Below are positions 4,407 to 14,637 of a stretch of 64,000 bases of DNA, one piece after another; the first letter of the stretch is position 1, and each line of letters starts with the position of its first letter. Source of the stretch: Pelagomonas calceolata. Lineage: Eukaryota. A program made the translations under genes and the position numbers. The stretch lies in the NCBI GenBank assembly GCA_918797485.1, contig CAKKNE010000005.1:3968001-4032000 (forward strand), given 5' to 3'. The notes below the pieces were generated by a model. It saw nothing but the letters and a program-made list of their open reading frames with translations. It was not told where the DNA came from and searched no databases.

Positions 4407-6866
4407 CTAGCCCACCTCCATGGGATCCGCCGTCAGCTCCCTCAACATAAAATAGGCCTGCTGCGACCGCACCTCCATGTCCTTCAGTTTGTCGACGTCG
4501 CCCGCGATGTTCGCCAGCCGCGCCGTCCGAGCTTTATCTTCTTCCTCCGTACCCTCGCGCACCTCGCCGAAGACCACGTCTCGCAATTCCGGCGGCAACG
4601 TTAAATCCTGAGCGTCCATGCGCGGCACCTGTTGACCCAACTTCGCCTCGACGCCCTTCAGCAACTCGGGTTCGTCGTACCAGACGCAGTTGCCGCCCTT
4701 CTCAAATTCGCGCGTGTCTTTTTGCGGCGGCTTCTTGCCCCGCTGGCAGAACCAGACCTTCTCTTTTACGGTAGAGACGAGAGACACGGCCAATCCGACC
4801 TTGTCGGCTCGCCCAACTCGACCAATCCTATGAACATAATTCTCGGCAACATCAGGCAAAGTCACGTTGACCACGCAAGGCAATCCAACAACATCAATAC
4901 CCCTAGCTGCCACATCGGTCGCGATCAAAATCTTCACGTCTCCCGCCTTGAAGGCCTCGAGGTTCCTCCGCCGCTCGTGCATCGAGCGCATGCCAGCTAA
5001 CACGCAACACGCGTAGGGCGACTCTTTCCCCGACTCCTTCCTTCCTCTGAAACCACCACTACCGCCGATCTTGTTCAGGTACTTTTCAAATAGGTCGCAG
5101 TCGAGGTTCGTCCGACAGAACACCAAACACTGCTCCATCTTGAGGGAATCGAACAATTTGACAAACAAAGCCGGTTTGGCGAGCTTCACGACCTCTGATG
5201 AATCTTCTTGCGAGGTCTCCAACACGGCCTTGACGTCGCCCTTGAGCAGTGACGGCGCCTCAAATTTATCTAAATCACCCTTGCGGTGGACACTATCAGT
5301 AGTAACACGTTTGTCGTCATCTAGAGACTGCTTGGCTAGTTCTCGAATATCGAGGGACGACGGATCCACAGGTACCACTAAATGCTTCACAGAGTCAGGT
5401 AAGTGCTTCTCGCCCTTCAAATCGACCCACGTCGGGTTGTCGCAGACCTTTCTTGACAACTCCTTGATGGCTTCCGAGTGCAAAGTAGCGGAGAAGAAGG
5501 CCACCTGCAGCCGCCGGTCGCGCGCCGTCGCCGACGCGCCCTTCGGCAATTTCTCGAAGATCTTGAGGCACGTCGCGACGTCGTCCGTCTCGATGAACCG
5601 GTCCGCCTCGTCCAGCGTGAAGAAGCGGCAGGCGTCGACGTCCATGATGCCTCGCTTCACCAAGTCCCAGACCTTGAGAGGCGTGCCCGTCACGATATCC
5701 ACATCTCCATTCCTGAGAGCTTGTTCGGCTTCTTTTGTATTTATACCGCCGATCAGCAGCGCGCATTTGATGTGCGGGTCTTGCAAATAACGAGCATACG
5801 ACTCAATGCAGTCGTGGGTCTGCTCCGCCAGGTCCCGAGCCGGTTCGAGGATGATGGCCGATACCGACCGGCCACTTTTCTGGCGTTTTTTGGTTGACTC
5901 GTACTCGTTCTGGTCCTTACGAAGGCCCGCTTGCAGCTGGGGGCACGCCGCTACGGATACAAACCCTTCTTTCGGGAACTTCAGCTCCGAAAATGATACA
6001 GCCAGCTGCGCGTTCCGCATCGCGACCGCCGGGAAGAGAGCTACACCTTGTAAAGCTGGCGGTAACGGTGCGAAGGCATTGCCAAACGACTTCCCGTTGA
6101 CGTCGAAGCCGCAACTACCCCCTTCGACGTCGAGGTCGAGCCAGCACCTGCGCGGAGCAGCGGTCGCTCGACTCGGTCCGAATGGCCTCAAATTCGAAAA
6201 AGAAACCACCCACTTCATGGTGAGATGGACACGAGTCGCATCGATGGCGTGAAGGCGCCTCCACACGACGGGACGCCGAGATACGCACGTCACGACGTCG
6301 CCTTTGCCGTATTTCGTACCGTAGTCGTCGAACTGGCGGTTGTGACTTTTCTTGGCCGTCGCGCCGAAGCCCAGGCCGTTCTTGTCCGTGCCTAAGTCTA
6401 ACGAGGCCGCTTGGGTTGACCAGCCCGCCCTGCATAGTCCTTCGTCCTCCACACAGATCTCGAAGGCGTACTTGCCACTCTTGGCGGCAATTCCTTGCGA
6501 GCAGCGGCCGCCGGACCACCTTTCTGAACGCGACTGGCACCGGTCATTGTCTACGGCTAAAGTAGCGTCGCGGTCTTGTGTAGATAATGCAGGAGGGCCC
6601 GTCGGCGGCGGCGGCGCCTCTGGTGCCTCCTCGACCGCTGCGGGCGCCTCGGGCTCCTTGAGCTTCTCGTGCACCAGTTCTAAGATAGGTAACGAGAAGG
6701 CCGCCGTCTTGCCGCTGCCCGTCGGCGCGGCGACCATGACGTCGCCGCCGCCCAGGATCAGCGGGATGGCCTCGTCCTGGACTTCCGTCGGGAGCGTGTA
6801 GCCCACGTCATAAATGCCTCGCTGCAGCTCCGGGCTCAGGCCCATGGCCTCGAAGCCGCCGGACAT
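4407..6866 (-). CDS. DDX1: DEAD-box RNA helicase DDX1 with SPRY insertion; in-frame intron 6288-6148
   Basis: Q-motif, APTGSGKT, SPRY region (GLCRAGWS..LDLGTDK.G.GFG), DEAD, SAT, ARGID, HRIGRVGR; splicing restores GDVVT|CWLDLD. Confidence 0.95.
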   Translation of the reverse strand: MSGGFEAMGLSPELQRGIYDVGYTLPTEVQDEAIPLILGGGDVMVAAPTGSGKTAAFSLPILELVHEKLKEPEAPAAVEEAPEAPPPPTGPPALSTQDRDATLAVDNDRCQSRSERWSGGRCSQGIAAKSGKYAFEICVEDEGLCRAGWSTQAASLDLGTDKNGLGFGATAKKSHNRQFDDYGTKYGKGDVVTCVSRRPVVWRRLHAIDATRVHLTMKWVVSFSNLRPFGPSRATAAPRRCWLDLDVEGGSCGFDVNGKSFGNAFAPLPPALQGVALFPAVAMRNAQLAVSFSELKFPKEGFVSVAACPQLQAGLRKDQNEYESTKKRQKSGRSVSAIILEPARDLAEQTHDCIESYARYLQDPHIKCALLIGGINTKEAEQALRNGDVDIVTGTPLKVWDLVKRGIMDVDACRFFTLDEADRFIETDDVATCLKIFEKLPKGASATARDRRLQVAFFSATLHSEAIKELSRKVCDNPTWVDLKGEKHLPDSVKHLVVPVDPSSLDIRELAKQSLDDDKRVTTDSVHRKGDLDKFEAPSLLKGDVKAVLETSQEDSSEVVKLAKPALFVKLFDSLKMEQCLVFCRTNLDCDLFEKYLNKIGGSGGFRGRKESGKESPYACCVLAGMRSMHERRRNLEAFKAGDVKILIATDVAARGIDVVGLPCVVNVTLPDVAENYVHRIGRVGRADKVGLAVSLVSTVKEKVWFCQRGKKPPQKDTREFEKGGNCVWYDEPELLKGVEAKLGQQVPRMDAQDLTLPPELRDVVFGEVREGTEEEDKARTARLANIAGDVDKLKDMEVRSQQAYFMLRELTADPMEVG

Positions 6867-7048
6867 GGTCGCTCGGGAGCTTGTGCAGCTGTGCTCTCGC
6901 TCGCTCTAGGTGCACTGCGGCTCAGCGGCTGGCGGCGGCAGCGTGGTGTGGCAGTTCTTGTGAGTCACTAGCGCTGCTCAGCGAGTGTTCAACGACCACT
7001 GCGCACGAGTATCGAGGCTTCGCCGCTTGCTCGAGCTTCGAGTGATTC

Positions 7049-7070
7049 CTAGTGTGTCTATGAACGCTAG
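7049..7070 (-). promoter_or_regulatory. 22-bp CTAG-bounded element (variant) in divergent promoter
   Basis: CTAGTGTGTCTATGAACGCTAG. Confidence 0.6.
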
Positions 7071-7348
7071 CCGCTGCGTTTTGGCGTTGGCGTTGTCGCA
7101 AACGGCCCAAATTCCCGGTAAGAAGGGCAGTGCTCGCCGGCCTGACCACGTCGGGGACTGAACAGGCTCCCCACGCCATCGACGCGACGGCGTGCGGCTC
7201 CGAGGAGGGAGTGCGCTGCCTAGGCCATTAGGCTGCCCACACCATCCCACCTGCCGCTAGAGGCGGGGCTCCTCATTCATACCAGGGAGGGAGGTTTGCC
7301 GACGACAAGCCAGCCGACGCGGGGCAGCCCCAGAGACCAAACGCGACC

Positions 7349-9001
7349 ATGGCCGAGGTGCGCTGGGACGGCTACGAAGGCATCTACGCCGACCGCGCGG
7401 CGGACCCGCTCTTCAGCCCACGAATAATCGGCACGACGGCGGACCCCGACGACCGCGTGAAGGCGCCGCCCGGCTCATTACCGGCACAGCTCACCGTCGA
7501 CCCCCTCGCGTTCTACCGCGTCACACCATCTGTCAATGAGCCCCGGGAGGACGCCGTCTCCATTGATACTCATAGGAGGGATGAACTCGTCAACGACCCG
7601 GCGTTCTTCCGGCGCGGCATCTTCGCGAAACGAAGTCCTGTGAAAAAAACACCCGACGCCGCACTGATGCAGAAAGCCGTGGTCCTCCAGGCGCGCTGGC
7701 GCGGCGTGGCCTCCAGGCGCGCACTGGCGAATGAAGAGGACGCGAGCGTCGACCGGGCAATCCAAGAGCGCATTCTGAAGCTCATGCGTAATGATGAAGA
7801 CGCGAGCACGAATACGAACCAAACAGTGGAAGCGTTCATGCGCACGCCGGTGTCGACGTGGGTCGACGACAGCGACGCCGCGACGGTCGAGACGGCGACG
7901 GCTCGGACGGCCGAGCCGTCGGTCGACGATCCGTCGATCACGACCTCCCGGAAGGGCGAGATTTTGAGGAGGGCGCTCGTCACGGGTGAACCTATAAGTT
8001 GCGCGGGCCCGGTCCATCTCAATCTGGTGATAGCGTCGGGCAAGCGAAGGGGCCTCGTCGTCGACCATCGAGGCGGCGACGCGGTCACGCGGGAGTGCTG
8101 CTGCTTCCTGCCCTGGGTGCCGTGGCAGCCTTGGCTCCTCTGCGCGTGTTCGGATGTTGTTAGGGTGGGCGGCACCCGCACCTCATTCTTGTGCTGTAGC
8201 TACTCCGACGTCGTCAAGGCGAAGTACTACCCCTCCTCGAAGGCAATTAAAATAGAGGGCTGCCTGAGCTGCTGCGTCCCGCACCCGTTCGGCCAGCACC
8301 TCCACGTGCCCCGGGGCATTTATGGAGTGGACGCGCCGGTGGCGTCCTTTGGGTGCCTGTGCCCCGTGTTTAGGGGGAGGGAGCGCTTCGATCTTTATGA
8401 TGACGGCACGATCCGGCCGGCGCCGCGGCCGGATCTGGTCGTGGGGCGGCGGCACGTCGTCCGCGACAATAGATTATGTCTGGTACGGCATTCAGACGTC
8501 CACCGGCGCCTGGTCTTCAGCGACGTCCTGCGCCAGGCGAAGGCGGGAGGCGGGAAGTGCGTCTGCCCGCGGTGTCGTCGCAAGTGGTGCGGCTGCTGCC
8601 GGCGGTCTTCGTCGAAGCCCGTCGAGCCGGTGCGTGTCAGATTAAAACCTCTGGACGGCGTCTGCCGCTGCCACAAGGCCGCGCAGCGGTCACGTATGTG
8701 CCGGCGCGATGGCACGTGCGCGATCTGCGGCCGGCGGCGCGGCGCGAATAAAGTGAAGGCACCGACGGCGACGACGGCGGGCCAGGACACCTCCATCACC
8801 CCCGCAGAGCGTCAAAAAATAGAGCAGCAGAAGGAACGGGCCGCGCAGCTCGCGCGCCAGGAGGAGGCCCAGATCGACGCGTTCGTCCTTGGTGTTTTAG
8901 GGGAGAAGCGAGGTGCGGCGGCGCTGCGGCGAGAGAAGCTCAAGCCGAAGAACGAGGGGCTCCAGGGCAAGACGCCGGAGGCCGGTTGTGTCGTAATGTG
9001 A
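7349..9001 (+). CDS. Hypothetical protein with IQ-like motif, Cys-rich region and C-terminal CaaX
   Basis: 550-aa ORF; AVVLQARWRGVASRR; ends CVVM*. Confidence 0.7.
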   Translation: MAEVRWDGYEGIYADRAADPLFSPRIIGTTADPDDRVKAPPGSLPAQLTVDPLAFYRVTPSVNEPREDAVSIDTHRRDELVNDPAFFRRGIFAKRSPVKKTPDAALMQKAVVLQARWRGVASRRALANEEDASVDRAIQERILKLMRNDEDASTNTNQTVEAFMRTPVSTWVDDSDAATVETATARTAEPSVDDPSITTSRKGEILRRALVTGEPISCAGPVHLNLVIASGKRRGLVVDHRGGDAVTRECCCFLPWVPWQPWLLCACSDVVRVGGTRTSFLCCSYSDVVKAKYYPSSKAIKIEGCLSCCVPHPFGQHLHVPRGIYGVDAPVASFGCLCPVFRGRERFDLYDDGTIRPAPRPDLVVGRRHVVRDNRLCLVRHSDVHRRLVFSDVLRQAKAGGGKCVCPRCRRKWCGCCRRSSSKPVEPVRVRLKPLDGVCRCHKAAQRSRMCRRDGTCAICGRRRGANKVKAPTATTAGQDTSITPAERQKIEQQKERAAQLARQEEAQIDAFVLGVLGEKRGAAALRREKLKPKNEGLQGKTPEAGCVVM

Positions 9002-9227
9002 TTTTTGTCTATTTTTTCGACGCGGTGTCTCGCTTCTATCGCGTTTAGACCACGTCTCCCGAGCCGCTGACTTTGCGACGTATTCGGATTTACCCGGGTT
9101 TCTCGGCGGGGGTGTCTGTCGTGGTCTATACTCGAGAGGTCTCGCTCTAGAGTCTCTAGAGAACCTCCCGGCGACCCGCACCTCTGGTTTTAGTTGTTAT
9201 TACCCACAGACTCGTAAAGGACGGCCC

Positions 9228-9893
9228 TCACCACGCGTCGACCTCGCTCCCGCCGCCCGACTCGACGGCCGCCATCTCGGCGTCGGTGATGGGCGTCAGG
9301 CCGAAGCGCGGCGCGAGGTCCGCGAGCTCGACGGCGAGGCCCGACGGGACCGCCTCCACGGCCGGCGCCGCGGCGGCGGGCGTAGATACGGGCGCAGAAG
9401 CCTCCTTCTTGAGCAGCGACCGCTTGCCGAGGAATTTGATGAGCGGGACGTGACCGCGCTTCGGCGCCGGCTCGGGCGCCGCGGCGGGCGCCGCGGCCGG
9501 CTCCGGCGCGGCCGCGGGCGCGGCCGCGGGCGCGGCAACGGGCGCCGCGGCGCCGTCCGTGTCCAGCGTCATCATCTCGGCGCCGACCTGGACCTCGTCG
9601 TCGACCGCGACGGACAGACTCTGGACGACGCCCGCCGTGTCCGAGCGCACGTCCACGGACACCTTGTCCGTGTCTATCACTGCCACAATCTCATCCACCG
9701 CAACGGCGTCGCCGACCGCCTTCTCGACGGACGCGACCGTGCCCTCGGTGATCGAGTCGCCCATCGCGGGCACGTTCAGGACGTGCGTCGCGAGGGCGCG
9801 CGCGGCGGCCCGCCGCGGCGCCGCGGCCCGCGCGCCAGCGCTTCGCGGCGCCGCACGGGCGCGTTGGACCACTCGTCCGAGGGTCCGCAGCAT
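9228..9893 (-). CDS. Mitochondrial lipoyl-domain protein with Kgd4/MRPS36-like C-terminus
   Basis: Arg-rich presequence MLRTLGRVVQR; E2o-type lipoyl domain VPAMGDSITEG...DTDKVSVDV; Ala/Pro linker; HVPLIKFLGKR and ITDAEMAAVESGG motifs. Confidence 0.8.
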   Translation of the reverse strand: MLRTLGRVVQRARAAPRSAGARAAAPRRAAARALATHVLNVPAMGDSITEGTVASVEKAVGDAVAVDEIVAVIDTDKVSVDVRSDTAGVVQSLSVAVDDEVQVGAEMMTLDTDGAAAPVAAPAAAPAAAPEPAAAPAAAPEPAPKRGHVPLIKFLGKRSLLKKEASAPVSTPAAAAPAVEAVPSGLAVELADLAPRFGLTPITDAEMAAVESGGGSEVDAW

Positions 9894-10066
9894 GTCTTCT
9901 GTCTGGGGCTGTGCTCGCTTTTGCGCGGAGCGATGCGGTTTCCGCGCAGGGAGACTTGCTCTCCGATGCGTTCGGCGAGCGATGCGTCTGTGACAGGCTG
10001 CGATTTGCACGAGAACTGCTCAACCCGGCGTACTCCGGCCGCAAAGGAAAGGCTGCGCAGCCGGTG

Positions 10067-10088
10067 CTAGCGGCCTGTAAGACACTAG
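10067..10088 (+). promoter_or_regulatory. 22-bp CTAG-bounded element
   Basis: CTAGCGGCCTGTAAGACACTAG, about 175 bp upstream of ATG 9893. Confidence 0.7.
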
Positions 10089-10399
10089 CAAGCAGCGCGA
10101 ACGGCTCGCGTGGAACGTAGCCCCACGCCGAAGCCGTCGACGCTACCCCTAAAACGGAACACAGGGAGTCCCTTACCCCCCTACCACCGCGACGCGCGTC
10201 CGCGTCGCCGCGAAAAAACCTGTGGAGCAAAAGAAACGTGTGTGCGCCCGCACCACCCGCGCGCGCGGAAACGCAAGAACCGCCCGGGGGTCGGTGGCAG
10301 ACAACGGATGCTCTGCGCCGGCAGAACTGGAGCGGCGTCTACGGACGAAGACGAAGCTCCGAAAGGCCAGCGTAAATAAGAAGGACGCCGGTCCACACT

Positions 10400-11005
10400 T
10401 CAAGAAGGCGGCGCGAACCGCTCGGCCCGCGCCTTGAGCTTGGCCTCGTTCGCCTTGACGGCCGGGTCCTTGAACCGCTCGGCCCTTGCCGCTTTTTTGG
10501 CCGCCTCTTCTTTGGCTCTAGGGTCTTCAAATCTCTCCTTCCTAGCCTTCTTCTTCGCCTCGTCGGCGTCGGGGTCCGGCAACCCGAAGCGCTCGGCGCG
10601 CTTCTTTTTCTTCTTCTTGTCGTTTTGTTTCTTGTCCTTCGGCGCCACATACAATGGAATGCCGAAGCGCGCGGCGCGCGCGGCCTTCTTCTTCTCCAGT
10701 TCGCTCAGCTCCTCCGTTGCTGGAGGCGCGGGCTCGGCCGCGGGCTCGGCGGCCGCCGGTTCCGGCGCGGGCGGCGGCGCGGGGGCCGGCGCGGGCGGCT
10801 TTGCTGCCTTGGGCGACGGCGCCGGGGCCTTCTCGGGGCTCGGCGCCGGCGCGGCGGCCGCGGGCTCGTCGAGGCCGAACTCCTCCTCGTCGAGCGCGAG
10901 CTGGAGCCGGTCGACGAGGACGGCCTTGAGGCCGTCCGTGCTCAGGCCGCGCTCGGCGAGCGCCGCGCGGAGCTCCGCGACCTTCATCTTCTTGGGCTCG
11001 ACCAT
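10400..11005 (-). CDS. SARNP: SAP-domain ribonucleoprotein (SARNP/THO1/MOS11-like)
   Basis: N-terminal SAP (MKVAELRAALAERGLSTDGLKAVLVDRL) and repeated RAxRF motifs. Confidence 0.85.
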   Translation of the reverse strand: MVEPKKMKVAELRAALAERGLSTDGLKAVLVDRLQLALDEEEFGLDEPAAAAPAPSPEKAPAPSPKAAKPPAPAPAPPPAPEPAAAEPAAEPAPPATEELSELEKKKAARAARFGIPLYVAPKDKKQNDKKKKKKRAERFGLPDPDADEAKKKARKERFEDPRAKEEAAKKAARAERFKDPAVKANEAKLKARAERFAPPS

Positions 11006-11197
11006 GGTGGCTTGTGTTTGTTTGCGCGGCGCGCTCCTCTGGTGCTCAGCGGGCTACTGCGGCGGCGACGTCTGCGGGCGAACGTCTGCGCTGGGCTGCT
11101 GGCGGGCGGCGGAGGAAGTCAGAGATGTGTCTCTGTGCACCGGTCGTCCGCAATAGCGCGCGCGCGACGGCTGCCAAAGTTTCGCGGGCTCGACACG

Positions 11198-11219
11198 CTA
11201 GTGTGTTACACGACGCTAC
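11198..11219 (-). promoter_or_regulatory. CTAG element variant in divergent promoter
   Basis: CTAGTGTGTTACACGACGCTAC. Confidence 0.55.
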
Positions 11220-11470
11220 CTCCGTTTTTGTTCGCATCCCGCAAAATCAGCGCAAACGCGTGATTGGATCGATAGGTGTATCCGACGCAGCGCCTAGACG
11301 CTGCGGTGCTTGATTCTCGCGCGAGTTTTGACAGCTTTCGCACCCTACAGCCTCGCAGAGCATAGCACCTTATTTGCACGCGTTCTGCCACGCGCCACGC
11401 GAACACGCGAACGACAGTTCGGCATCGACACGTAAACACGAACTACAGTCCGGCATCTCGACAGTACGCG

Positions 11471-13170
11471 ATGAGGGCTGCCCTGCTGGCATTACTGTCG
11501 ACGACGCGTGCTGCATCGCACCGCATCAAGCACGTCGTGGTGCTCTACGAGGAGAACCGCGCCTTCGACCACCTCCTCGGTCATCAGAAGTCGTTGCATG
11601 TAGACGGGCTCAAGGGCGACGAGTCGAATCCCGTCGATCGCAGGGACCCGAGCAAGGGTTCGGTGGAGGTCTTCGACGGCGCGCCGTACGTCGCCGTCGA
11701 GCAGCCGCGGCACGGCTACGCGCCCTACCAGGTCAAGCTCGACGTCCAAGATAACGTCCCGCAGATGGACGGCTTCGTGGAATTTGAGAGGTCGGTGCAT
11801 AAGAAGAATACGAGTGTGGCGGACGCCGTGATGCAGGGCTTCTCGGACGGCGCATTACCGGTCTCCACGGCGCTGGCCTCTGAGTTCGCCGTCTTCGACC
11901 GCTGGTTCACGGCCTTCCCGGGCCCGAGCTGGCCGAACCACATGTTCTCGTACAGCGCGACGGCGAACGGAAATACGAACACCGGCGACGGCTACCTCTG
12001 CGAAAAAGATAGGCCCTACCCCCAGCGCACGATCTTCGACGCCCTGCTCGACGCGGGCCACGAGTACGTGCGGATCTACAACGACTCCAGTCTGTTGCTG
12101 TGTGGAATTCAAATTCGGGCGCCCCACGCCATCGACGCGATGTTGTCTCTGTGGAGTTCTCAGGCCATCGACGCGACGTTGTCGCCGTGACCGCATCGGT
12201 TATATGGCGTGGAGGTTCACGAAGGCCCGCGCAATATTTCTCAGGATAACCAATCTCACTGTTGGGTTTCCACACAGTAACGGACACGTTCATGGAGGCG
12301 TTCGGCTCGAAACAGACACGTTCACGGACGCACACCATGGACCGCTTCTTCGCCGACGCGGCCAAGGGCACGCTACCAGCTTTAACTTGGATCGACCCGC
12401 GCCAGGGTATTAATAAGACGCTCGGCGACCTCGGCGGGCCCAACTCCGACCACCCGTCGTGCTGCGACGTGGCGCTTGGGGAAAGATTGCGGAAGGACAT
12501 CTATGAGGCACTGAGGGCGGGTCCTGGCTGGAACCACACTGCATTCATCATGACCTGGGACGACCCCGGCGGGTTTTACGACCACGTGCCGCCGCCGATG
12601 GCCGCCCCGCCGCCGGACCACCAGCCCGCCTGCTTCTGCCTGAACGGCGAGAAGACGTGCGAGGGCTTCGGGCCCTACTCGCGGCTCGGGAGTAGAGTTC
12701 CCGTGCTCGTGGTCAGCCCCTGGGTCCCGAGGGGCTCTGTGGTGTCGGCGCCGCGCACGAAGCCGTCGCCGACCTCGCAGTTCGACGGGACCTCGATCGT
12801 AGCCACGGTCAAGCGATTGTTTGACCTGCCGACCTTCCTCACGCGCCGGGACGCCTGGGCGGCGCCCTTCGACTGGTTATTTGAAGATCTCGACGAGCCG
12901 CGCACGGACGCGCCAATGCACCTACCAAGCGCGCCTTTGCCGACGCCGCGGCCCGGCGGCCAGCCGTGGGGCACGGACTGCGACGATCCTACGAGGAGGA
13001 TGCGCCGATCCATCTTAGCGTTCGAAAAGCTGCTCGGCGTCGAGGCGCCGCCGCGTTTACACGCCTGCGCCCACGCCGAGCCGCACTGGGAGCACCGCTG
13101 CGCGGCGGGGACGATGGCCGAGGCGACGGCGTGGTTAACTGAGGCGACGGAGCGGTGGTTAGCTTCTTGA
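11471..13170 (+). CDS. Phosphoesterase / non-specific phospholipase C (exons 11471-12089, 12278-13170)
   Basis: Signal peptide; IKHVVVLYEENRAFDH, FDRWF..PGPSWPNH, SDHP, TWDDPGGFYDHVPPP, RLGSRVP. Confidence 0.9.
12090..12277 (+). mobile_element. Introner intron (188 nt, GT-AG)
   Basis: 8-nt lead GTCTGTTG, then CTGTGTGGAATTC...TTTCCACACAG; removal restores IYNDS|ITDTF. Confidence 0.8.
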
Positions 13171-13314
13171 CTTCTCTCCTTCTTTGTTTGTTGTTGATAA
13201 GTCTTCCGTTCAAAATCAGAGTCGATGTTACGGTGCTAGGACTAGTGGGCGGAGCCCCGGGGGGGAGACACCGCGCTTCGCCGATTCATCGGCGGCGGGC
13301 GTTCAAAATCCTTG

Positions 13315-13336
13315 CTAGCGGCTGGTAAGACACTAG
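13315..13336 (+). promoter_or_regulatory. 22-bp CTAG-bounded element
   Basis: CTAGCGGCTGGTAAGACACTAG, about 160 bp upstream of ATG 13498. Confidence 0.7.
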
Positions 13337-13497
13337 CAGGCAGGCAAGCTTGCTCTTGCCAGCCGATTGCGCCCTCACTCTGGTGTAAGAGTGGCCGTGG
13401 ATCTACACATTGCTGCTCTCATCGCTGCCTTGTGCTCGCTGCCAACTTTCAGCTCCTGCAACGGTCGGGAAGCCGCGAAACTATCCGCAGTGCTTAA

Positions 13498-14637
13498 ATG
13501 TCATCTGCTGCAAACGCGTTAGAGATCCCGGACAGCTCGGACGACGAGGCAGCGAGGCCCCAGTGGCAGCCGTTACGACTAAAACCAGGCGACACTGCGA
13601 CCGGTAAAGCCGATGCGCCGCTCCCGATCTCGGACTCGGACGACTCGCAGGACGACGAGCCCACCGCTCGCGCGCGGCAGAACCTGCAGAACGCCCTCAA
13701 ACAACCGACGCAGCAGGACGACGACGCGCCCGCCTCGAAGCGCCAGCGGACGGATGATGCTCCCGTCGACCTGACGCTGGACAGCGGCGACGACGAGGCC
13801 GCGCGGCCCGGGTCGCCGGACACGGACGGGTCGCCGACGGCGCGCGCGTTCTGGCCCAGAATTCCGGAGAAGGGCGACGCTCCAGCGCTCGCCGCGGGTA
13901 CCGTCGGCGGCCTGTACCACGTCGGCATGCGCCAGGGCTGCGGCGCGGACAAGACGGGCGCGCGGTCCCTGTCGGAGCGCGACTACGTGGAGACCCTGGG
14001 GCGGATCCGGGCCGAGGTCGCCTTCGACATGCGCCGCGGGACCTGGAAGAGCAAGTGCCAGAAGAAAAAGGGAGGGCCGTGCGGGGGCCACCCCGAGTGG
14101 AGCTGCAACTGCCCGAAGGACAGCCGGGTCGAGGCTGTCCACGCGCGGGCCGGCGTCGCGTACGAGTGGCTCGGCGGGCCGATCACGAAAAATGGCGGCC
14201 ACAACCTCGGCGGGAGCGAGGTGTCGGCGTATCCGGGTCGCGAGTACCCGTTCCTCAAGAACTCGCGCGAGATCATGCGCGCGATGTTCGACCCCCGCAA
14301 CACGGCCGGCCGCCCCTGCCTCGACGGGACCAAAAAGAAGACGGTGCGCGTGCGCTACGACCCCGACGCCCACGCGGCCCTGAAGCGCGTCGCCGCCGTC
14401 TCGAAGACGAAGCGCGTCGTCCTCATCTGCGTCGAAGACAATCTGTCGGACTGCCACGTCGAGACCCTCATCGAAGTCATGCTCGAGCAGAGGCTCATCG
14501 ACGCCGCGACGGCCCTCGAGCCGACGCTCATGCGGCCCGGCGCCGGCTGGACGACCTGCGCGTGCGCGCGCCACCTCGACTGGAACGCGGAGCTGCGGCG
14601 GGTCAAGGCCGCGCGCTACGCCACGAGAGGTAAGTAA
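13498..14637 (+). CDS. DUF488-like protein with acidic SIM-like N-terminal region
   Basis: LYHVG..RSL..AFDMRR..GVAYEWLG..LGG..VVLICVED...CH pattern; EIPDSSDDE, VDLTLDSGDDE. Confidence 0.6.
   Translation: MSSAANALEIPDSSDDEAARPQWQPLRLKPGDTATGKADAPLPISDSDDSQDDEPTARARQNLQNALKQPTQQDDDAPASKRQRTDDAPVDLTLDSGDDEAARPGSPDTDGSPTARAFWPRIPEKGDAPALAAGTVGGLYHVGMRQGCGADKTGARSLSERDYVETLGRIRAEVAFDMRRGTWKSKCQKKKGGPCGGHPEWSCNCPKDSRVEAVHARAGVAYEWLGGPITKNGGHNLGGSEVSAYPGREYPFLKNSREIMRAMFDPRNTAGRPCLDGTKKKTVRVRYDPDAHAALKRVAAVSKTKRVVLICVEDNLSDCHVETLIEVMLEQRLIDAATALEPTLMRPGAGWTTCACARHLDWNAELRRVKAARYATRGK

What the first reader, a model, noticed from the sequence alone, without database searches (positions are those of the whole stretch)
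9228..9893. Lipoyl domain fused to a Kgd4/MRPS36-like adaptor, with no E2 catalytic core
Seen: mitochondrial-type presequence, E2o-type lipoyl domain with intact DK lysine, Ala/Pro linker, then HVPLIKFLGKR and terminal ITDAEMAAVESGG; the ORF stops with no acyltransferase domain. Established: fungal/animal Kgd4/MRPS36 is a small E3-recruiting adaptor of 2-oxoglutarate dehydrogenase with PxIKF-like and ExExIxxGG-like motifs and no lipoyl domain. Inference: an intermediate linking Kgd4 to a truncated E2 paralogue, possibly a lipoylated E3BP-like subunit of stramenopile OGDH.
Basis: partly seen in the sequence, partly recalled or inferred. Interest (0 to 1): 0.75.

Follow-up and report, generated by a model that had tools for sequence, protein, structure and literature searches.

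The report
Lipoyl-armed Kgd4 adaptor in stramenopiles
This algal gene encodes a Kgd4/MRPS36-family protein, the small adaptor that in yeast and animals ties the E3 enzyme to a key citric-acid-cycle complex, but here it carries an extra lipoyl "swinging arm" domain and no catalytic part, so it likely acts as a lipoylated fourth subunit of that complex in algae and water moulds.

Summary
The 221-aa ORF has an Arg-rich presequence, an intact lipoyl domain (Pfam 57.5 bits), an Ala/Pro linker and both Kgd4 motifs, then stops. Kgd4 kinship is well supported: PF10937 is just above its cut-off, a profile of the C-terminal part retrieves a chytrid Kgd4 (E 1.7e-10), and a reverse profile scores this protein 50 bits against at most 10.8 for shuffles. 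It is not a broken E2: transcript evidence crosses the stop with no splice joint seen (at low depth), 0 of 80 loci and 0 of 150 representatives join Kgd4 motifs to an E2 core, and the organism expresses a separate E2o. The architecture recurs in oomycetes, a diatom, a pelagophyte, a chrysophyte and a xanthophyte. The lipoyl domain groups with eukaryotic E2o. Lipoyl-less Kgd4 also occurs in stramenopiles (Aureoumbra), and the same domain is fused to E1o in two other loci, so 'evolutionary intermediate' is unproven; secondary fusion fits as well. The Kgd4 part shows no likeness to the PSBD, so this is at most an analogue of E3BP. Binding and lipoylation were not tested. Ten literature searches showed no description. 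New variant of a known kind.

The parts
9228..9893 (-). Single-exon ORF, 221 aa: lipoyl domain + Kgd4/MRPS36 adaptor
   Evidence: colinear orthologue with the same start and stop in syntenic locus L001
9789..9893 (-). Residues 1-35, mitochondrial-type presequence (inferred from composition)
   Evidence: 9 Arg, no acidic residue; disordered in the model; no targeting predictor run
9558..9788 (-). Residues 36-112, E2o-type lipoyl domain; lipoyl-acceptor K77 at 9663-9665
   Evidence: PF00364 57.5 bits; beta-sandwich, pLDDT above 90, matches solved lipoyl domains; groups with eukaryotic E2o domains, SH-aLRT 99; dN/dS 0.22 against L001
9453..9557 (-). Residues 113-147, Ala/Pro flexible linker
   Evidence: sequence; low pLDDT
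9411..9452 (-). Residues 148-161, Kgd4 N-motif HVPLIKFLGKRSLL; predicted E3-binding module by homology
   Evidence: P, I, F, G invariant in 19 of 19 aligned homologues; aligns with chytrid P0186 and animal-type P0196; E3 binding shown only for the yeast N-terminal half (PMC4214781)
9348..9410 (-). Residues 162-182, second Ala/Pro linker
   Evidence: variable among homologues
9249..9347 (-). Residues 183-215, Kgd4 C-motif ending ITDAEMAAVESGG; predicted E1o-E2o core-binding module by homology
   Evidence: PF10937 best stretch 171-214; E206 invariant; helix 204-211 in the model; core binding shown only for the yeast C-terminal half (PMC4214781)
9184..9227 (-). 3' untranslated region, contiguous with the stop codon
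   Evidence: contig 9184-9505 of run X1 without differences or gaps; poly-A reads of X21 at depth 4-9 over 9170-9340

Best explanation
The gene encodes a Kgd4/MRPS36-family protein fused behind an intact E2o-type lipoyl domain, and it likely works as a lipoylated fourth subunit of mitochondrial 2-oxoglutarate dehydrogenase. Shown: the domain layout, Kgd4 homology, E2o affinity of the lipoyl domain, its conservation, transcription, and a separate E2o transcript in the same organism. Inferred: (1) import into mitochondria; (2) the PLIKFLGKR motif binds the E3 dimer and the C-terminal helix binds the E1o-E2o core, as the two halves of yeast Kgd4 do; (3) K77 is lipoylated; (4) the extra arm, held next to E3, takes part in succinyl/electron shuttling as an accessory carrier that is useful but dispensable. 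It thus parallels E3BP of pyruvate dehydrogenase without being related to it beyond the lipoyl domain. My odds: Kgd4-type OGDH adaptor about 0.85; lipoylated about 0.8; all steps together about 0.6.
For: Kgd4 homology in both directions. Lipoyl domain closest to E2o among eukaryote-type solved chains: E2o 58.8-70.8 bits against E2p 22-25, protein X 15-31, branched-chain E2 22. All 27 fused domains and 15 eukaryote-type E2o domains form one group against 60 other, mostly bacterial, domains, SH-aLRT 99. Acceptor Lys, acid at -3 and +4 and Gly at +11 kept in 64 of 64 stored fused proteins, many of them near-copies; dN/dS 0.22 in the domain. Named carriers: Aphanomyces (2 species), Saprolegnia, Achlya, Pythium brassicae, a Phyca11 model, Pelagophyceae CCMP2097, Thalassiosira exigua, Pedospumella, Tribonema. 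Organism A's poly-A reads cover an E2o core and a second lipoyl domain that differs from this gene at 18 of 28 listed sites. The eukaryote-type E2o proteins in alignment A3 lack the PSBD insert seen in the two bacterial rows, the gap that MRPS36 is proposed to fill (PMC9974300, sections 2.2-2.3).
Against: The direct Pfam hit is marginal (23.1 against 22 bits) and 3 of 19 aligned homologues miss PF10937 even at E 1. Of the best 150 representatives about 38 have a presequence-like start directly on the Kgd4 motif, among them a named pelagophyte, Aureoumbra, so the arm is not required. In mammals the adaptor's weight is disputed: little KGD4 was seen in pig-heart OGDHc (PMC11436768, passage) and co-expressed MRPS36 did not raise activity in HEK cells (PMC8146983, passage). 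The lipoyl-domain tree held no eukaryotic E2p, E2b or E3BP rows, and its rows were gathered by likeness to the query. No single RNA record bridges the two halves of this gene (gap 9506-9553 in the repetitive linker).
Confidence: 0.6

Rival explanations
1. It is a Kgd4 adaptor of OGDH, but the lipoyl domain is not a working acyl carrier: it serves as an extra docking or anchoring module, or as a lipoate store or relay.
For: The domain is absent from many close relatives. A structural anchor role for unloaded lipoyl domains has been proposed for OGDHc (PMC10203282, passage).
Against: The acceptor Lys and the flanking residues are kept in 64 of 64 fused proteins, and the domain stays 46-59% identical to E2o and other fused domains. 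A pure docking role would not obviously need the whole site, though a relay role would.
Confidence: 0.2
2. The protein recruits E3 to another or to several 2-oxoacid complexes (branched-chain, 2-oxoadipate or pyruvate dehydrogenase), not specifically OGDH.
For: E3 is shared among these complexes (PMC4214781). Automatic names for homologues include E2p and branched-chain E2. Lipoyl-bearing and lipoyl-less forms might be paralogues with different partners; co-occurrence in one genome could not be checked.
Against: The lipoyl domain scores far higher with E2o than with eukaryote-type E2p or E2b; all tested Kgd4 proteins belong to OGDH in the papers read; the automatic names come from the lipoyl domain alone and disagree with one another.
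Confidence: 0.12
3. Gene-model artefact, chimera of two neighbouring genes, or decaying truncated E2o copy.
For: Raw-read depth is zero over 9398-9511 and no RNA record joins the halves.
Against: One open frame without intron; same layout in a syntenic orthologue at 77% amino-acid identity with overall dN/dS 0.28; complete transcript-derived ORFs with the layout (P0125, P0136); 10 of 80 independent loci and 38 of 150 cluster representatives; 0 join Kgd4 motifs to a core.
Confidence: 0.03

Closest known systems
Kgd4/Ymr31 (yeast), MRPS36/KGD4 (mammals), E3BPo (Chaetomium); Pfam PF10937
   Same: Both conserved terminal motifs, flexible middle, no catalytic domain, presequence-type N-terminus; profile matches in both directions.
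   Different: An intact E2o-type lipoyl domain and linker lie between presequence and adaptor (221 aa against 82-125 aa for the fungal/animal-type sequences seen); found in stramenopiles, whereas PMC4214781 reports fungi and animals and PMC9974300 'eukaryotes' (its sequence list could not be seen).
E3-binding protein (E3BP/Pdx1/protein X) of pyruvate dehydrogenase
   Same: Non-catalytic, lipoyl-bearing, E3-recruiting subunit (layout from PMC4059968 and PMC10156792, passages); here inferred.
   Different: E3BP uses a PSBD and a core-binding domain and is an E2p paralogue; this protein has neither and its lipoyl domain is E2o-type. Analogue, not member.
Mitochondrial E2o (DLST/Kgd2)
   Same: Presequence, lipoyl domain (58% identical to that of E2o in L014) and Ala/Pro linker.
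   Different: No succinyltransferase core; Kgd4 motifs stand in its place; a separate E2o is expressed.
Lipoyl domains fused to non-E2 subunits (lipoyl-E3 chains such as PDB 5u25 and 1gjx; lipoyl-E1o in L008 and L020)
   Same: A lipoyl domain relocated onto another subunit of a 2-oxoacid complex.
   Different: Here the carrier is the small adaptor rather than an enzyme.

Membership tests
Kgd4/MRPS36 (PF10937) | Pfam profile score at or above the gathering cut-off | tested here: met
   23.1 bits against 22, marginal; 16 of 19 aligned homologues match at E up to 1, best 5.9e-7
Kgd4/MRPS36 (PF10937) | Conserved N-terminal and C-terminal motifs alignable with fungal/animal members | tested here: met
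   Profile A2 finds Blyttiomyces P0186 (E 1.7e-10; itself PF10937 41.7 bits) and animal-type P0196 (E 9.8e-3); reverse profile 50.0 bits against 10.8 for shuffles. Only P0186 is named; the other fungal/animal labels are my reading of the sequences.
Kgd4/MRPS36 (PF10937) | No catalytic domain; largely flexible | tested here: met
Kgd4/MRPS36 (PF10937) | Mitochondrial matrix location | tested here: inconclusive
   Presequence-like composition only
Kgd4/MRPS36 (PF10937) | N-part binds E3, C-part binds the E1o-E2o core | not tested
E3BP/Pdx1 | Lipoyl domain | tested here: met
   but of E2o type
E3BP/Pdx1 | PSBD for E3 binding | tested here: not met
   No PF02817 hit; hhalign of A2 against 21 bacterial PSBD stretches, probability 0.2%
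E3BP/Pdx1 | Inactive E2-like core or core-binding domain | tested here: not met
   No PF00198 hit; no core profile hit in the window
E2o (dihydrolipoyl succinyltransferase) | E2o-type lipoyl domain with acceptor lysine | tested here: met
E2o (dihydrolipoyl succinyltransferase) | C-terminal acyltransferase core | tested here: not met
E2o (dihydrolipoyl succinyltransferase) | Lysine actually lipoylated | not testable with these tools
   needs proteomics or an in vitro assay

The most novel reading that the evidence does not exclude
The lipoyl-bearing form is the ancestral Kgd4: an early eukaryote duplicated the E2o front end onto, or into, a new E3 adaptor, giving OGDH its own E3BP-like lipoylated subunit independently of pyruvate dehydrogenase; fungi, animals and many stramenopile lineages later lost the arm. 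It would be a further class of mitochondrial lipoylated protein, spread across stramenopiles and perhaps green algae and haptophytes (ESM Atlas look-alike clusters, unverified).
Probability: 0.3. Interest if true: 0.72.

Novelty: new variant of a known kind. Interest (0 to 1): 0.52.

Why it matters
How eukaryotic OGDH recruits E3 after losing the PSBD is known only from yeast, a mould and mammals, and the origin of Kgd4/MRPS36 is unexplained in the papers read. This finding extends the family, by named records, to diatoms, pelagophytes, chrysophytes, xanthophytes and oomycetes, and shows a version with a lipoyl arm that parallels E3BP. It predicts an extra lipoylated mitochondrial protein of about 20 kDa in major marine primary producers and makes the adaptor's origin testable by phylogenomics. 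It also corrects database entries that call these proteins E2o, E2p or branched-chain E2. The architecture is already latent in precomputed Pfam calls, and the function is an extension of a known one, which caps the surprise.

Tried and rejected
Own genome: none held, so copy number, a lipoyl-less paralogue and E3BP presence in this organism were not checked. Complex prediction of the Kgd4 part with an E2o core trimer: tool not available, nothing folded, no verdict. PSBD ancestry of the C-motif (suggested by a GR-x-IT-x-E look-alike): rejected, hhalign 0.2%. Solved structure of a Kgd4 relative: none, 2 chance hits at E 1 and 6.1. ESM Atlas on residues 140-221: no usable hit; on the whole protein it gave clusters with commonest taxa Bacillariophyta and Chlorophyta (score 0.96) and Haptophyta (0.86-0.87), leads only. 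Attempts to name non-stramenopile carriers failed: 8 of 10 proteins carried no name, and named no non-stramenopile fused protein. Single origin of the fused lipoyl domains: free tree needs 6-7 changes, but one clade is not rejected (AU p 0.128, 36 rows); undecided. Direction of gain or loss: tree of 52 motif columns unresolved. The careful tree did not finish; the quick tree is reported. Earlier scan findings: none. Supplement of PMC9974300 unreadable. PMC12354856 (diatom lipoylation), PMC7050145 and PMC13311838: passages read, nothing on this protein. Expression levels of this gene and E2o were not compared, because identity thresholds and GC dropout differ.

Full report
Observation. The stretch 9228-9893 is a 221-codon ORF on the minus strand. 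It reads: Arg-rich, acid-free residues 1-35; a lipoyl domain (PF00364, 57.5 bits, residues 38-110) with DTDK77V; an Ala/Pro linker; HVPLIKFLGKR; a second linker; and ITDAEMAAVESGG seven residues before the stop. PF10937 (Kgd4-YMR31) scores 23.1 bits against a cut-off of 22. An AlphaFold2 model from a 19-row alignment has a confident beta-sandwich (pLDDT above 90 over about 41-110), one helix at 204-211 and is otherwise low-confidence; Foldseek matches solved lipoyl and biotinyl domains. The organism is not given; it is a GC-rich eukaryote whose named relatives here are stramenopiles, and I take it for a pelagophyte-like alga by inference only.

Is the tail really Kgd4? The direct hit is marginal, so I tested it both ways. 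Of 19 aligned full-length homologues, 16 match PF10937 at E up to 1, best 5.9e-7. A profile of 20 C-terminal stretches, all from fused proteins (A2), found 47 short proteins among 7998 candidates, including an 82-aa lipoyl-less protein of the chytrid Blyttiomyces helicus (E 1.7e-10), which itself scores 41.7 bits on PF10937, and an animal-looking one at E 9.8e-3. Against 1.84 billion representatives A2 gave 781 hits at E up to 0.001, with fungal- and animal-looking sequences among the best 150 (only P0186 is named, the other labels are my reading). A profile of 11 such sequences scores the window protein 50.0 bits; the best of 1000 shuffles reached 10.8. Those 11 were found with A2, so the test is not wholly independent. 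A likeness to the PSBD was rejected (hhalign 0.2%, 21 stretches), and no solved relative exists for this part.

Is it a broken E2? No core is encoded in the window. A contig of run X1 (RNA by guess) matches 9184-9505 without differences, crossing the stop; two more cover 9554-9807 and 9801-10057; poly-A reads of X21 cover 9170-9340 at depth 4-9 in the direction expected for a minus-strand RNA; no joint was listed in 4 of 4 runs. Limits: depth is low, the three raw-read runs are one sample and have no coverage at 9398-9511, and no record bridges 9506-9553. Among 80 loci picked for this type of lipoyl domain, 66 continue into an E2 core, 10 into Kgd4 motifs (three of them weak, 16-20 bits), 0 into both and 4 into neither. 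None of the best 150 representatives has a core. Laid on the E2o gene of L014 at 80% likeness, reads of X21 cover the core and a lipoyl domain that differs from the window gene at 18 of 28 listed sites, so a separate E2o is expressed. A syntenic orthologue (L001) has the same start and stop, 77% identity, and dN/dS 0.22 in the lipoyl domain, 0.28 overall (one pair, GC-rich codons).

Source of the lipoyl domain. Among solved chains, eukaryote-type E2o scores 58.8-70.8 bits, against 22-25 for eukaryote-type E2p, 15-31 for protein X and 22 for branched-chain E2; the two top totals are multi-domain bacterial PDH E2 chains whose best single stretches score 46.7 and 52.7 (matches include linker). 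In a quick tree of 102 domains, 27 fused and 15 eukaryote-type E2o domains form one group against 60 others, SH-aLRT 99; eukaryotic E2p, E2b and E3BP were not in it. Fused domains are mixed with E2o domains, but one clade is not rejected (AU p 0.128, 36 rows after dropping near-copies and most outgroups). The acceptor Lys with acids at -3 and +4 and Gly at +11 is kept in 64 of 64 stored fused proteins, a redundant set; that these flanking positions matter for lipoylation is recalled, not from a call.

Distribution. Named carriers of the fusion are Aphanomyces cochlioides and A. euteiches, Saprolegnia parasitica, Achlya hypogyna, Pythium brassicae, a Phyca11 gene model, Pelagophyceae CCMP2097, Thalassiosira exigua, Pedospumella encystans and Tribonema minus. 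Of the best 150 representatives, 38 have a full lipoyl domain, 6 a part, 33 look like fragments with its last strand, 38 have a presequence-like start directly on the first motif and 35 are unclear (rule-based sorting). One lipoyl-less form is from the pelagophyte Aureoumbra lagunensis. On a tree of 52 motif columns (56 lipoyl-bearing, 35 lipoyl-less, 11 fungal/animal-type rows; fragments, most unclear rows and three doubtful 'presequence' rows left out) the lipoyl label changes 20 times against a shuffled mean of 33.8, but well-supported branches force only one change. The arm thus seems to come and go, direction unknown. ESM Atlas look-alike clusters point to green algae and haptophytes, which I could not confirm by name. 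The same domain is fused to E1o in L008 and L020, showing that it moves among OGDH subunits.

Mechanism. In yeast the N-terminal half of Kgd4 binds E3 and the C-terminal half the E1-E2 core (PMC4214781, parts 1-3 of 5 of the text read); in mammals MRPS36 is modelled between E3 and E2o and proposed to replace the lost PSBD (PMC9974300, outline, passages, sections 2.2 and 2.3). Both motifs are conserved here, so I infer the same adaptor role, with an added lipoylated arm next to E3 acting as an accessory carrier (0.6 for the whole chain). Rivals are a non-carrier role for the domain (0.2), another 2-oxoacid complex (0.12) and artefact (0.03). Against a central role even for plain KGD4: little was found in pig-heart OGDHc (PMC11436768, passage), and it did not raise activity in a HEK assay (PMC8146983, passage). 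No binding prediction could be run.

Comparison and novelty. It is filed under Kgd4/MRPS36 on sequence criteria, with binding untested; it is not E3BP (no PSBD, no core) and not E2o. It would work like E3BP, which carries a lipoyl domain and recruits E3 (PMC4059968, PMC10156792, passages). Ten full-text searches (listings and abstract starts only, two of them too loose to be informative, and 40 of 45 'Kgd4' papers listed) and the passages read in PMC10203282, PMC7050145, PMC13311838 and PMC12354856 showed no account of a lipoyl-Kgd4 fusion. The library lacks most subscription papers, and the supplement of PMC9974300 with its 304 homologues could not be seen. Precomputed Pfam calls already show both domains on some records. 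Interest 0.52.

Noticed in passing
L008:113-3457 and L020:9-1346: The same E2o-type lipoyl domain fused to the N-terminus of 2-oxoglutarate dehydrogenase E1 in two eukaryote-like contigs (Pfam: Biotin_lipoyl + 2-oxogl_dehyd_N, and in L008 all E1o domains). Taxon unknown; literature not searched.
   Followed up: partly
P0025; L005:133-1863: A Kgd4-type protein with two tandem lipoyl domains (347 aa) and a eukaryote-like E2o with two lipoyl domains.
   Followed up: no
P0281 (Aureoumbra lagunensis), P0176, P0183 and others: Lipoyl-less Kgd4 with a presequence directly on the first motif in stramenopile-type sequences; plain Kgd4 outside fungi and animals.
   Followed up: partly
P0027: Lipoyl domain joined almost directly to the C-motif, lacking the PLIKF motif; may be an assembly collapse or a splice form.
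   Followed up: no
window 10400-11005 (-): SAP + Tho1/MOS11_C protein; reads break at 10219 and continue with sequence from about 10400, which points to an intron of about 180 nt just behind the stop codon.
   Followed up: partly
window 4407-6866 (-): DEAD-box helicase with a SPRY insertion, DDX1-like by recall.
   Followed up: no
window 7349-9001 (+): 550-aa Cys/Arg-rich ORF with no Pfam match, transcribed, converging on the gene studied and partly conserved in L001 at about 72% DNA identity.
   Followed up: no
window 9039-9071 and 10066-10095: Short stretches that attract many reads or contigs with loose ends, likely short repeats shared with other loci.
   Followed up: no
L001 against window 4777-14546: Gene order is conserved over the whole 8.7-kb locus at 72-84% DNA identity.
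   Followed up: partly
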